Source: a virus. From it: DNA of 13,254 nucleotides. Shown here one piece after another: positions 7,017 through 8,000 of this stretch. The stretch lies in UHGV virus genome UHGV-0215671; one strand, 5' to 3'. The position numbers were made by a program, and so were the translations under genes. How positions within the stretch are numbered: position 1 is the stretch's first letter; each line of letters begins with the position of its first letter. Under the pieces are notes generated by a model, which was not told where the DNA came from, made no database searches, and saw only the letters and a list, made by a program, of their open reading frames with translations.

Positions 7017-7574
7017 TTATTTTCTTAGTGGATGAATAAAGAATGCCAACATAACTCTTTCCCTTGAGAATGCTCTTTCTTCTGGGACAACACTTTTAAG
7101 TTTCCATCCAACATAAATTCTCCAGTAGAATTGTTTACCAAAGATTTTAATTGATGGTACAAAAGCGAATAATCCCCAAGCATTACTGTTCCACATTAGT
7201 AGATAACCTGTCTGATTATCTTCAGGGTTAGAACTTACATTGATATTACCTTTCCACTTAGTAACATCTTTTACATCTCTTCCTAACACATGGTAAGAGA
7301 AGTTATAAGCTTTGTTTCTCCAGAGCCAACCAACTCTCTGCATATAGATACCAAGCTTACCAATCTTTCTAATCTTAGCCCATCGTTTGACATGGCCTTC
7401 ATCACCATCAATCGGGTTGTCGTAAGTTTCCATCCATCTAAATCCGAAAGGTAAGTGTCCTTTCTTCTCACTGTAAAATGGAACTACGAAAGGTGCTAAG
7501 ATAACTGCTAAGATTGCTGCAAATGGCTCTAACAAAGCTAAGAAAATCCATGAAGCATACTTCAAATATCTCAT
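7017..7574 (-). CDS. Hypothetical membrane-anchored protein, 185 aa, embedded in the tRNA array
   Basis: ORF track; ATG 7574-7572 preceded by AAAGAGG with an 8-nt spacer, 20 nt downstream of tRNA-Arg; hydrophobic N-terminus (WIFLALLEPFAAILAVILAPFVVPF) predicted transmembrane; Trp-rich. Confidence 0.55.
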   Translation of the reverse strand: MRYLKYASWIFLALLEPFAAILAVILAPFVVPFYSEKKGHLPFGFRWMETYDNPIDGDEGHVKRWAKIRKIGKLGIYMQRVGWLWRNKAYNFSYHVLGRDVKDVTKWKGNINVSSNPEDNQTGYLLMWNSNAWGLFAFVPSIKIFGKQFYWRIYVGWKLKSVVPEERAFSRERVMLAFFIHPLRK

Positions 7575-7753: not shown

Positions 7754-7828
7754 TGGTACTCACTAAAGGACTTGAACCTTTTTCTTCATCTTGTAAGGGT
7801 GGTGTTTTACCATATAAACTAAGCGAGT
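7754..7828 (-). tRNA. tRNA with anticodon UAC (Val by anticodon); weak anticodon stem
   Basis: Acceptor ACTCGCT/AGTGAGT, D-stem GTTT/AAAC, canonical loop CTTACAA but only 3 of 5 stem pairs, T-arm AAAGG-TTCAAGT-CCTTT. Confidence 0.5.
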
Positions 7829-7833
7829 ATGAA

Positions 7834-7920
7834 AGAGGTCTGAAGTTGTGCCGCTAACTCAACTCCGTGGAATTTGTTACGGTCTTCAGTTGACTCAAAG
7901 CGGTCTTTCACTTGACCTCT
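7834..7920 (-). ncRNA. 87-nt structured element of unknown function occupying a tRNA-sized slot (not a canonical tRNA)
   Basis: Terminal 7-bp complementarity AGAGGTC/GACCTCT, nested internal stems, no TTC-type T-loop, three GGTCT motifs; flanked 5-6 nt from tRNAs on both sides. Strand inferred from context only. Confidence 0.3.
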
Positions 7921-7924
7921 GAAT

Positions 7925-8000
7925 TGGTGCTCCCACAAGGATTCGAACCCTGATAAGTTGCTTACAAGGCAACCGTAATAGCCAATTATACGATAGGAGC
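7925..8000 (-). tRNA. tRNA-Thr (UGU)
   Basis: Acceptor GCTCCTA/TGGGAGC, anticodon stem GTTGC/GCAAC with loop CTTGTAA, T-loop TTCGAAT. Confidence 0.75.

What the first reader, a model, noticed from the sequence alone, without database searches (positions are those of the whole stretch)
7834..7920. 87-nt structured element occupying a tRNA slot but lacking tRNA features
It sits 5-6 nt from tRNAs on both sides, has 7-bp terminal complementarity and nested internal stems predicting a rod-like fold, but no TTC-type T-loop or GG D-loop; it also carries three GGTCT motifs related to the spacer repeat family. T4 encodes two stable small RNAs of unknown function within its tRNA cluster, so an analogous stable RNA or a second Y-RNA-like candidate is plausible.
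Basis: partly seen in the sequence, partly recalled or inferred. Interest (0 to 1): 0.5.

Follow-up and report, generated by a model that had tools for sequence, protein, structure and literature searches.

The report
Unannotated small RNA among phage tRNAs
An 87-base stretch between two tRNA genes of a Felix O1-type phage is not a tRNA but is very probably a conserved, folded small RNA of unknown job; it lies in the same gene array as a phage Ro60-type RNA-binding protein, although nothing found here links the two.

Summary
Window 7834-7920 lies on the minus strand, the strand of all 25 tRNAs. It starts 4 nt after the CCA of tRNA-Thr and ends 5 nt before tRNA-Val. It has a 7-bp terminal helix and no tRNA or Rfam match.

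It occurs once per genome in about 254 Felix O1-like phages at 95-100% identity, tighter than the flanking tRNA-Thr and tRNA-Val alleles. It also occurs in six Avunavirus-type records, inside a shared block (tRNA-Gly, element, DUF7338 gene). Between those lineages, element positions 27-53 have no change, while 18 of 60 other positions differ and third codon positions of the neighbouring gene are 54% diverged.

Compensatory changes support the terminal helix and a CCGC/GCGG helix. G·U pairs fix the RNA strand. The interior is ambiguous. The predicted rod has mismatching variants; a branched, pseudoknotted fold has none.

It is not coding, not similar to T4 rnaC/rnaD, and not host-derived.

A Ro60-like protein is encoded at the head of the array. 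However, the element lacks Y-RNA hallmarks and persists in phage Av-05, which has no Ro60 gene. Four other spacers are better Y-RNA candidates.

Most likely it is a stable passenger RNA cut out by tRNA-processing enzymes. Expression and function are untested.

The parts
7834..7920 (-). The element: an 87-nt non-tRNA RNA gene. Element position p corresponds to window coordinate 7921-p.
   Evidence: No tRNA or Rfam match. MFE -29.4 kcal/mol, z = -3.9. 260 phage records carry it. The covariance model finds one copy per genome.
7921..7924 (-). 4-nt spacer (AUUC) between the CCA of tRNA-Thr and the element. It is 4 nt in every variant, including after tRNA-Gly in Av-05 and TH18.
   Evidence: Sequences.
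7914..7920 (-). P1, 5' strand (positions 1-7, AGAGGUC).
   Evidence: Pairs with 7834-7840. G4-C84 becomes U-A in the Avunavirus clade. G·U variants A1G and C84U occur. 96.7% of cells are paired.
7834..7840 (-). P1, 3' strand (positions 81-87, GACCUCU).
   Evidence: As for the P1 5' strand.
7900..7905 (-). Helix K, 5' strand (positions 16 and 18-21, G·CCGC).
   Evidence: Pairs with 7850-7854. G20-C68 becomes A-U in L035/L036, with a G·U intermediate in L066. G16-C71 becomes A-U in the Avunavirus clade. 99.1% of cells are paired. This helix is part of both fold models.
7850..7854 (-). Helix K, 3' strand (positions 67-71, GCGGC). In the branched model it lies inside the loop of P4, which makes a pseudoknot.
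7867..7894 (-). Near-invariant core (positions 27-54, GUCAACUGAAGACCGUAACAAAUUCCAC). It includes the small hairpin P3 (27-29/37-39, with 7-nt loop AACUGAA).
   Evidence: 0 of 27 differences (positions 27-53) between the window and Av-05, against 18 of 60 elsewhere in the element (Fisher p = 0.001) and 54% divergence at third codon positions of the neighbouring gene. Only two singleton variants were found by core-independent sampling: U50A and G41A.
7842..7866 (-). P4 hairpin of the branched model (positions 55-61 pairing with 73-79, 11-nt loop). It excludes the inner helices of the rod.
   Evidence: 100% of cells are paired in 22 distinct sequences. A57-U77 becomes G-C in Avunavirus and G·U in L041. 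G56·U78 becomes G-C or A-U. P4 is part of the MFE fold of the Av-05, TH18 and L041 variants.
7829..7833 (-). 5-nt spacer (UUCAU) before tRNA-Val. After RNase P cuts at the tRNA-Val 5' end it would be the 3' tail of the released RNA.
   Evidence: The RNase P step is inferred.
7925..8000 (-). tRNA-Thr(UGU), the upstream neighbour.
7754..7828 (-). tRNA-Val(UAC), the downstream neighbour.
10856..12271 (-). Context only: the Ro60/TROVE-like plus vWA protein gene at the head of the tRNA array. It is a possible but unproven partner of structured RNAs in the array.
   Evidence: Pfam DUF2828, DUF7788 and VWA_2. PHROG 'RNA-binding protein'. 31-34% identity to mycobacteriophage 'Ro-like RNA binding protein'. 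AlphaFold2 model with pLDDT 90 whose top 11 PDB matches are all Ro60-family structures (Ro60, Rsr or a TROVE-domain entry).

Best explanation
The element is a gene for a non-coding RNA of about 90 nt. It rides in the phage's polycistronic tRNA transcript.

**How it is made (inferred).** It has no promoter or terminator of its own, so it is transcribed with the neighbouring tRNAs. The host tRNA-maturation enzymes then release it. RNase P cutting at the 5' end of tRNA-Val creates its 3' end. Its 5' end comes from the cut that frees the 3' trailer of the upstream tRNA. That cut could be RNase E in the 4-nt spacer. Alternatively it could be RNase P treating the stacked terminal helix and 3' hairpin as an acceptor/T-arm mimic.

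**What it looks like.** The 7-bp terminal helix protects both ends. A second long-range helix (CCGC/GCGG) and either a 3' hairpin or a continued rod organise the interior. Together they display a near-invariant 28-nt segment, GUCAACUGAAGACCGUAACAAAUUCCAC.

**What it does (inferred).** The conserved segment most likely acts in trans as a binding surface for a protein, as an RNP component or a decoy. It is less likely to work by base-pairing or as a mere processing spacer.

**Shown here:** location, strand, conservation, structure-preserving substitutions, absence of coding potential.

**Inferred:** transcription, processing route, stability and the trans-acting role.
For: **Placement**
- It is on the same strand as all 25 tRNAs, 4 nt and 5 nt from its neighbours.
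- Promoter-like sites on that strand lie at 10837, 10746 and 9318. No terminator-like site on that strand lies between 9290 and 7594.

**Conservation**
- 254 Felix-like records carry it at 95% identity or more, one copy each.
- It stays 95-100% identical while tRNA-Thr alleles drop to 79% and tRNA-Val alleles to 84%.
- It is kept in the Avunavirus lineage within a syntenic block: tRNA-Gly 88-89% identical, the DUF7338 protein 79% identical at the amino-acid level and its gene 71.5% at the nucleotide level.
- Across that distance the core has 0 of 27 changes, against 18 of 60 elsewhere in the element.

**Structure-preserving substitutions**
- Double changes occur in P1 (4/84), K (16/71 and 20/68) and P4 (57/77).
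- The branched model has 98.8% of cells paired. Only 5 of 500 shuffles reach its 4 covarying pairs.
- G·U pairs such as G56·U78 (in 15 of 22 distinct sequences) would be A·C on the other strand. The selected structure is therefore an RNA in tRNA sense.

**Link to the upstream tRNA**
- The element always starts 4 nt after a tRNA CCA, whichever tRNA that is (Thr or Gly). Its downstream neighbour varies, either a tRNA or an ORF.

**Not coding**
- The 30-codon GUG frame is shifted by 1-nt indels in other Felix-like variants and stops after 7 codons in Av-05.
Against: - No transcript, RNA ends or stability data exist for any phage that carries it. Literature searches found none.
- The interior fold is not settled. 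RNAalifold and the MFE of the Felix-type sequence give the rod. Only one double change (57/77) is truly informative for P4.
- Diversity is low: 22 distinct sequences in essentially two clades. Part of the sampling required the core 19-mer to be exact. This was corrected only partly.
- No partner is identified.
- The element is dispensable for the phage group as a whole. Ounavirinae phage Wc4 has tRNA-Thr and tRNA-Val 9 nt apart. Yersinia phage P778 has a 42-aa ORF in that slot.
Confidence: 0.5

Rival explanations
1. A Y-RNA-like partner of the phage Ro60 homologue. The terminal helix and/or the shared GAAGACCGU motif would bind the Ro60-like protein encoded at 10856-12271. The RNP would act on host RNA-decay enzymes or defence systems.
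For: - A Ro60-fold protein is encoded at the head of the same array.
- In Bas63, a Felixounavirus, that protein counters the Ppl defence system. The authors suggest that some array genes are Y RNAs.
- Bacterial and phage Y RNAs are encoded next to Ro60 and have a stem formed by their 5' and 3' ends.
- The core motif GAAGACCGU is shared with the 5' arms of the four 'D8' spacer RNAs. One of these has a YrlA-like T/acceptor/D arrangement.
- The 5' end GGUCAAGUG loosely resembles the vertebrate GGUCCGAGUG (recalled from memory, not tested).
Against: - There is no CGAA or GNCGAAN0-1G motif, no T or D arm, and no Y_RNA or YrlA hit in Rfam at E<=10.
- The complete Av-05 genome keeps the element, with an identical core, but has no Ro60 homologue (tblastn E>5) and no D8 RNAs.
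- The numbers of Escherichia phage records fit this. 120 carry Ro60 and 126 carry the element, of which 6 are Av-05-like.
- The closing helix differs from the conserved D8 closing helix.
Confidence: 0.15
2. A purely cis-acting processing or punctuation element. It would be a structured spacer offering an RNase III, RNase P or RNase E site so that the flanking tRNAs are matured. The excised RNA itself would have no role.
For: - It always lies 4 nt after a tRNA 3' end.
- In Av-05 it separates tRNA-Gly from a downstream mRNA.
- There are precedents. Theta ribozymes sit within 5 nt of phage tRNAs and are proposed to process 3' trailers. T4 species 1 RNA is an RNase III substrate (own knowledge).
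- The rod is a long imperfect duplex.
Against: - A processing site does not need 27 consecutive unchanged bases across lineages whose neutral sites are about 54% diverged.
- In Felix-like phages the next tRNA already supplies an RNase P site. Other junctions in the array have 1-7 nt spacers with no such element.
- Wc4 manages with tRNA-Thr and tRNA-Val adjacent.
- The lower rod helix (8-11/75-78) does not exist in Av-05.
Confidence: 0.15
3. A decayed tRNA gene, i.e. a pseudogene occupying a former tRNA slot with no present function.
For: - It occupies a tRNA-sized slot and has a 7-bp acceptor-like terminal helix.
- In the branched model a hairpin abuts the 3' strand of that helix, like a T arm. 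A small hairpin carries a 7-nt loop. A loop-to-linker helix recalls D-loop/T-loop contacts.
Against: - The tRNA model gives no hit even at E<=10.
- Arm sizes are wrong: a 7-bp stem with an 11-nt loop where a T arm would be, and a 3-bp stem where an anticodon arm would be.
- A pseudogene would not be more conserved than the functional tRNAs beside it.
- A pseudogene would not show compensatory changes.
- No related phage has a real tRNA in this slot.
Confidence: 0.05
4. A DNA-level palindrome, for example a protein-binding site, recombination hotspot or homing-endonuclease target, rather than an RNA.
For: - Both strands fold equally well in silico.
- The array is a hotspot for insertions: HNH-type ORFs and small ORFs at tRNA junctions.
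Against: - The supported helices contain G·U pairs and G·U intermediates on the minus strand. These are A·C mismatches on the plus strand and in a DNA cruciform.
- The most conserved part is the non-palindromic core, not the arms.
Confidence: 0.04
5. A new self-cleaving ribozyme that frees the 3' end of the upstream tRNA, working as theta ribozymes are proposed to.
For: - Its position 4 nt after the tRNA CCA is like that of theta ribozymes.
- The fold is possibly pseudoknotted and the core is highly conserved.
- CUGAAGA and GAAA strings are present (sequence).
Against: - No hit to any Rfam ribozyme family at E<=10.
- The order of helix strands (P1a, Ka, P3, P4a, Kb, P4b, P1b) does not fit the HDV-like nested double pseudoknot. 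The hammerhead stems cannot be drawn around the CUGANGA and GAAA strings (my reading of the sequence).
Confidence: 0.03

Closest known systems
Bacteriophage T4 species 1 and species 2 RNAs (rnaC, rnaD)
   Same: Both are small non-tRNA RNA genes embedded in a phage tRNA cluster. They are co-oriented with the tRNAs and a few nucleotides from them (T4 annotation). Their function is unknown.
   Different: - No sequence similarity: local alignment scores fall within the shuffle range. The element's covariance model finds nothing in the T4 region.
- The T4 RNAs are 119 and 139 nt. They lie after the last tRNA and carry tRNA-like 3' parts, namely a GGGUUCGAAUCCC arm in rnaC and a CCA end in rnaD (sequence). 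The element has neither.
Bacterial and phage Y RNAs (YrlA/YrlB; Thermus phage phiLo Yrl1/Yrl2)
   Same: The element is encoded in the same array as a Ro60-fold protein gene. Its 5' and 3' ends pair into a stem. It is phage-encoded and lies among tRNA-like sequences.
   Different: - No CGAA / GNCGAAN0-1G motif and no T or D arms (compared with the sequence).
- No Rfam hit.
- Retained in Av-05, which has no Ro60 gene.
- Four other spacers in the window fit the Y-RNA description better.
tRNA and tRNA-like RNase P substrates (4.5S RNA precursor, tmRNA tRNA-like domain, phage phi80 M3 RNA)
   Same: A 7-bp terminal helix which, in the branched model, stacks on an adjacent hairpin like acceptor stem plus T arm. 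It sits where RNase P must cut for the upstream tRNA to be released.
   Different: No T-loop sequence, no CCA and no score with the tRNA model. Cleavage by RNase P is inferred, not tested. The comparison with 4.5S, tmRNA and M3 rests on my own knowledge.
Theta (minimal HDV-like) ribozymes next to phage tRNAs
   Same: A structured RNA within about 5 nt of a phage tRNA, with proposed coupling to tRNA 3'-end formation (PMC10879173).
   Different: The fold topology does not match the HDV-like double pseudoknot. No catalytic-C junction can be assigned. No Rfam ribozyme hit. The hosts are enterobacteria, not Bacteroidota or Bacillota.

Membership tests
tRNA (Rfam RF00005 / ARAGORN) | Cloverleaf that scores with a tRNA covariance model or ARAGORN | tested here: not met
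   ARAGORN finds 25 tRNAs but none in 7829-7924. RF00005 gives no hit at gathering score or at E<=10 in a 351-nt search.
tRNA (Rfam RF00005 / ARAGORN) | T arm with a GGUUCRANYCC-type loop, a GG D-loop and a 3' CCA or discriminator | tested here: not met
   Absent from the sequence. The 3' flank is UUCAU and varies between variants (UUAAAG, UUUCAU, CUAUC).
Y RNA / YrlA-type RNA | Encoded next to a Ro60 (TROVE) gene | tested here: inconclusive
   In Felix-like phages a Ro60-fold gene lies 2.9 kb upstream in the same array. In Av-05 the element exists without any Ro60 homologue.
Y RNA / YrlA-type RNA | CGAA / GNCGAAN0-1G (or GGUCCGA) Ro-binding motif near the 5' end or in the internal bulge | tested here: not met
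   Motif definitions come from PMC4201824 and PMC12135203. The element has no CGAA. The closest strings are GUCAAG in the window and GUCAAUG in Av-05.
Y RNA / YrlA-type RNA | Stem formed by the 5' and 3' ends | tested here: met
   P1 is 7 bp and is supported by a compensatory G-C to U-A change.
Y RNA / YrlA-type RNA | tRNA-like T and D arms (YrlA) or a match to the Rfam Y-RNA models | tested here: not met
   No T or D arm in the sequence. No Y_RNA or YrlA hit at E<=10.
Y RNA / YrlA-type RNA | Binding to Ro60 | not testable with these tools
   Needs EMSA or RIP with the 471-aa protein.
T4 rnaC/rnaD stable RNAs | Sequence or structure homology to T4 species 1 or 2 RNA | tested here: not met
   Local alignment scores of 18 and 15, against shuffle means of 14.3 and 13.7. 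Covariance model R1 finds no significant hit in the T4 tRNA region (best 10.9 bits, E = 1.6).
T4 rnaC/rnaD stable RNAs | Stable small transcript processed out of the tRNA operon | not testable with these tools
   No expression data are available. Literature searches were empty.
HDV-like / theta ribozyme | Nested double pseudoknot (P1, P1.1, P2, P3, P4) with a catalytic C in J4/2 | tested here: not met
   No Rfam ribozyme hit at E<=10. The strand order of the supported helices is incompatible with the HDV topology (my reading).
HDV-like / theta ribozyme | Self-cleavage at its own 5' end | not testable with these tools
   Needs an in vitro cleavage assay.
Small protein gene | Reading frame conserved among homologues | tested here: not met
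   The 30-codon GUG frame of the window is frame-shifted in the Felix O1 and L052 types and is 7 codons long in Av-05.

The most novel reading that the evidence does not exclude
The element is the founding member of a new class of phage effector RNA. It would be carried in tRNA arrays and matured by the tRNA-processing machinery. Its near-invariant 28-nt module would bind and neutralise a host factor, for example a defence or RNA-decay protein. It would work either independently of Ro60, as its retention in Av-05 would require, or as a non-canonical second ligand of the phage Ro60 that counters the Ppl system.
Probability: 0.15. Interest if true: 0.75.

Novelty: new member of a known kind. Interest (0 to 1): 0.45.

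Why it matters
Felix O1-type phages are classic Salmonella and E. coli typing and therapy phages, with several hundred sequenced genomes. This element is unannotated in essentially all of them.

Small stable RNAs inside phage tRNA clusters have been known since T4. They remain without a function.

A Felixounavirus Ro60 homologue was recently reported to counter a defence system. Its RNA partners have not been identified.

The work here gives exact coordinates, a testable pair of fold models and a conserved core for one candidate. It also points to four better Y-RNA candidates in the same array. Each can be deleted or mutated directly.

If the RNA proves to be an effector, phage tRNA arrays would have to be read as carriers of regulatory or anti-defence RNAs, not only of tRNAs.

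Tried and rejected
1. **tRNA, tmRNA or any Rfam family.** No hit, even at E<=10.
2. **Homology to T4 rnaC/rnaD or to the JS10 rnaD-like spacer.** None.
3. **Coding.** The frame is not conserved. The Felix O1 'ORF107' on the opposite strand overlaps tRNA-Thr and is spurious.
4. **Independent mobile element (MITE-like).** Rejected. The Avunavirus copy sits in a syntenic block of tRNA-Gly, element and DUF7338, and there is one copy per genome.
5. **Host origin.** No match in 5,426 complete E. coli genomes. The bacterial hits to the 19-mer core come from an unrelated glutamine-amidotransferase coding motif.
6. **Antisense regulator of phage mRNAs.** The longest non-self complement of the core in a full Felix-like genome is 11 nt, and in Av-05 10 nt. 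Both are within the range of shuffled cores, whose modes are 10-11 nt. Host targets could not be scanned. Two earlier RNAduplex and regex scripts timed out.
7. **Hammerhead and HDV/theta folds.** Drawn by hand; the stems do not fit.
8. **More distant homologues.** None in T4-likes with DUF7338 (RB43, JS10, KP15), Justusliebigvirus inny, Wc4 or P778.
9. **A 3-bp helix 10-12/52-54** (GUG/CAC becoming AUG/CAU in Av-05). Noted, but too weak and too alignment-dependent to claim.
10. **Ascertainment bias.** The claimed invariance of the core was partly circular, because loci were fished with the core 19-mer. Re-sampling with flank patterns found two single-base core variants.
Full report
**What the window is.** The window is the tRNA region of a Felix O1-type phage (Felixounavirus, Ounavirinae). 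A 651-nt query around the finding matches 309 phage records, the best at 99.4% identity. ARAGORN finds 25 tRNAs, all on the minus strand, and Rfam confirms them. The finding must therefore be read on the minus strand. I number it 1-87, with position 1 at window 7920 and position 87 at window 7834.

**Check of the observation.**
- The element begins 4 nt (AUUC) after the CCA of tRNA-Thr(UGU) (7925-8000).
- It ends 5 nt (UUCAU) before tRNA-Val(UAC) (7754-7828).
- Its ends, AGAGGUC and GACCUCU, are complementary over 7 bp.
- The three GGTCT (AGACC in RNA sense) are at 7837, 7881 and 7902.
- Nothing tRNA-like is detected by ARAGORN, by Rfam at gathering score, or by Rfam at E<=10 on a 351-nt slice.
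- The minus-strand RNA folds into a rod of -29.4 kcal/mol, z = -3.9, with none of 200 shuffles as good. The plus strand folds equally well.

The description is accurate, and the fold is better than chance.

**Distribution.** BLAST finds the element in 260 phage records, almost always once per genome. Of these, 254 are at 95% identity or more; they include Felixounavirus, Suspvirus and Mooglevirus members. Six are at 80-90%. The six are Av-05 (Avunavirus, Vequintavirinae), listed under two accessions, and four related records, among them TH18. In them the element follows tRNA-Gly(UCC) by 4 nt and is followed by ORFs, not a tRNA.

This is not an independently mobile copy. The tRNA-Gly is 88-89% identical to the window's tRNA-Gly. 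The next sizeable gene, a DUF7338 protein, is 79% identical at the amino-acid level. The block tRNA-Gly – (tRNA-Thr) – element – (tRNAs or a small ORF) – DUF7338 is therefore shared by descent or by a single exchange.

The element is absent from more distant relatives. Pectobacterium phage Wc4 (Ounavirinae) has tRNA-Thr and tRNA-Val 9 nt apart. Yersinia phage P778 has a 42-aa ORF in that slot. There is no copy in 5,426 E. coli genomes. Bacterial hits to the 19-nt core are a coding motif of unrelated genes.

**Selection.** Among Felix-like genomes the element is 95-100% identical to the window, or 89% in the most divergent metagenomic contig, L041. Meanwhile tRNA-Thr occurs as two alleles (about 79-80% and 97-100% identical to the window's) and tRNA-Val as two alleles (about 84-88% and 92-100%).

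Between the window and Av-05, the DUF7338 gene is 71.5% identical at the nucleotide level and only 46% identical at third codon positions. The element shows 18 differences in its 60 outer positions and none in positions 27-53 (Fisher p = 0.001).

My first sample was fished with the core 19-mer, so I re-sampled IMG/VR with two flank patterns. Two further genuine contigs turned up, each with one core substitution: U50A and G41A. The core is thus nearly, not absolutely, invariant.

The element is not coding. The 30-codon GUG frame of the window is shifted by 1-nt indels in the Felix O1 and L052 types, and is 7 codons long in Av-05.

**Structure.** I aligned 22 distinct sequences: MAFFT alignment A3, and model-fitted alignments A4 and A6.

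Two helices are supported in every model.
- *P1 (1-7/81-87).* It shows a G4-C84 to U-A transversion pair in the Avunavirus clade and G·U variants.
- *Helix K (16/71 and 18-21/67-70).* G20-C68 becomes A-U in two metagenomic contigs, with a G·U intermediate in a third. G16-C71 becomes A-U in the Avunavirus clade.

The interior can be drawn in two mutually exclusive ways.
- *The rod.* It continues with 8-11/75-78, 28-33/57-62 and 39-42/53-56. It is the energy minimum for Felix-type sequences, and RNAalifold returns its inner part. Natural variants break it: U78C, U77C, G56A, A62U, A62C and G41A. Its lower helix does not exist in Av-05.
- *The branched fold.* It has a small hairpin P3 (27-29/37-39, with 7-nt loop AACUGAA) and a single-stranded stretch 40-54. 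It also has a hairpin P4 (55-61/73-79) whose 11-nt loop holds the 3' strand of K, which makes a pseudoknot. Its nested helices P1, P3 and P4 form the energy minimum for the Av-05 and TH18 variants. P1 and P4 also appear in the minimum-energy fold of L041. Every one of its cells in P3 and P4 is paired in all 22 sequences.

On A6 the branched model has 98.8% of cells paired and 4 pairs with changes on both sides; 5 of 500 shuffles reach that number. The rod has 95.9% paired and 3 such pairs, all in P1 and K; 111 of 500 shuffles reach that number.

I do not regard the interior as settled. Most P4 variants are transitions opposite G or U, which keep pairing automatically. Only the 57/77 change is informative, and the sequences fall into essentially two clades.

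The strand is clear. P4 contains a G·U in most sequences, and P1, K and P4 show G·U intermediates. All of these would be A·C mismatches on the plus strand.

**What it is not.**
- *T4 rnaC/rnaD.* There is no similarity. I fetched both from the T4 record. Alignment scores are within shuffle range, and the covariance model built from the element finds nothing there. The T4 RNAs carry a T-arm-like hairpin or a CCA end; the element has neither.
- *Known self-cleaving ribozymes.* None matches. The order of helix strands does not fit the HDV-like fold of the theta ribozymes that sit next to gut-phage tRNAs. The CUGAAGA and GAAA strings cannot be framed by hammerhead stems.
- *An antisense regulator of phage genes.* There is no sign of this. 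The longest non-self complement of the core in a complete Felix-like genome is 11 nt, and in Av-05 10 nt, as expected by chance.

**The Ro60 context.** The ORF at 10856-12271, directly upstream of the array on the same strand, matches Pfam DUF2828, DUF7788 and VWA_2 and the PHROG 'RNA-binding protein'. It is 31-34% identical over its full length to mycobacteriophage 'Ro-like RNA binding protein'. An AlphaFold2 model (pLDDT 90) has Ro60-family structures as its top 11 PDB matches: Ro60, Rsr and Thermus phage phiLo Ro60 entries, with TM-scores of 0.5-0.66.

A preprint reports that the equivalent protein of Bas63 (gp130) counters the Ppl defence system, and guesses that some 'tRNA genes' are Y RNAs. 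The paper does not give the genus of Bas63. I recall Bas63 to be Escherichia phage JohannRWettstein, and the taxonomy places that phage in Felixounavirus. Phage phiLo Ro60 binds two phage Y-like RNAs.

The element has the 5'/3' stem. It has no CGAA or GNCGAAN0-1G motif, no T or D arm and no Rfam hit. The complete Av-05 genome keeps the element, with an identical core, but has no Ro60 homologue.

Four other spacers of the window share a 20-nt motif and a common closing helix: 4 bp, an AGA/G loop, then AGACCRW/WYGGUCU. One of them (9712-9858) contains a T arm, an acceptor-like hairpin and a D-like arm in YrlA order. These are the better Y-RNA candidates. The element shares only GAAGACCGU with their 5' arms.

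**Most likely mechanism.** I found no promoter-like or terminator-like site beside the element on its strand. The nearest promoter-like sites on that strand are at 9318, 10746 and 10837, and no terminator-like site on that strand lies before 7594. The element should therefore be transcribed within the polycistronic tRNA precursor.

RNase P cutting at the 5' end of tRNA-Val would define its 3' end. Its 5' end must arise from the cut that releases the upstream tRNA's 3' trailer. The constant 4-nt distance to a tRNA CCA, whichever tRNA it is, suggests that this coupling matters. P1 stacked on P4 would resemble an acceptor/T-arm minihelix that RNase P could recognise. P1 would then protect both ends. 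These steps are inferred from established E. coli tRNA-operon processing, not shown.

Sequence-level conservation of 27 bases far exceeds what a processing spacer or a helix needs. I therefore think the released RNA acts in trans through that segment, most probably by binding a protein. I put about 0.5 on 'functional processed small RNA', about 0.15 on a Y-like Ro60 partner and about 0.15 on a purely cis-acting processing element. A tRNA relic, a DNA palindrome and a new ribozyme get small weights.

**Novelty and verdict.** The kind of thing, a non-tRNA small RNA riding in a phage tRNA cluster, has been known since T4. This one has no relative in Rfam. Apart from stray hypothetical-protein or overlapping tRNA-Val calls, it is unannotated in the listed records, and I found no paper that mentions it. 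I class it as a new member of a known kind, of moderate interest. It is well conserved and directly testable. It lies in an array whose Ro60 gene has a reported anti-defence role. It has no expression data and no identified function.

Noticed in passing
window 10856-12271 (-): A 471-aa protein with a Ro60/TROVE-like plus vWA fold, encoded directly upstream of the tRNA array. The equivalent Bas63 gp130 is reported to counter the Ppl defence system.
   Followed up: yes
window 9712-9858, 9860-9946, 10284-10360, 10438-10528 (-): Four spacer RNAs share the motif CAGAAGACCNNNNNCAGCAA and a common closing helix (4 bp, an AGA/G loop, then AGACCRW/WYGGUCU). The first encloses a T arm, an acceptor-like hairpin and a D-like arm in YrlA order. 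They are present in all Felix-like loci checked and absent from Av-05 and Wc4. They are the best candidates for the phage's Y RNAs.
   Followed up: partly
window 9572-9715 (-) and 8332-8421: A 144-nt spacer just upstream of tRNA-Lys(UUU) is closed by a 22-bp inverted repeat (95% complementary). A second inverted repeat of 26 nt lies at 8332-8357/8396-8421. Both may be further structured RNAs.
   Followed up: no
window 8918-8996 (-): A weak tRNA found by Rfam (31.7 bits) but not by ARAGORN. The collinear position in phage Shy's array is annotated tRNA-Arg(TCT).
   Followed up: partly
window 7925-8000 and 7754-7828; L001 1673-2086 and 1232-1345: tRNA-Thr and tRNA-Val each exist as two diverged alleles among Felix-like phages, while the element between them is constant. 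Felix O1 has an HNH-type ORF inserted between tRNA-Gly and tRNA-Thr, and a small ORF between tRNA-Leu and tRNA-Arg. tRNA junctions are insertion hotspots.
   Followed up: partly
whole window: The heptamer GAAGACC occurs 12 times against 1.4 expected, and AGACC 53 times against 21, including inside coding regions. The cause is unknown.
   Followed up: no
window 7017-7574 (-); L002 1697-2239; L031 4001-4555: The DUF7338 protein (sometimes annotated 'holin') lies beside tRNA arrays in Felix-like phages, in Avunavirus and in T4-like JS10. In JS10 it follows an rnaD-like RNA.
   Followed up: partly
L002 2667-2815 (-), phage Av-05: A tRNA-like sequence seen by eye (GGGAGUG ... CACUCCCACCA) between tRNA-Tyr and tRNA-Gly. 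ARAGORN does not call it.
   Followed up: no
L084 13978-14106, Yersinia phage P778: The tRNA-Thr to tRNA-Val slot holds an acidic 42-aa ORF with its own ribosome-binding site, instead of the element.
   Followed up: partly
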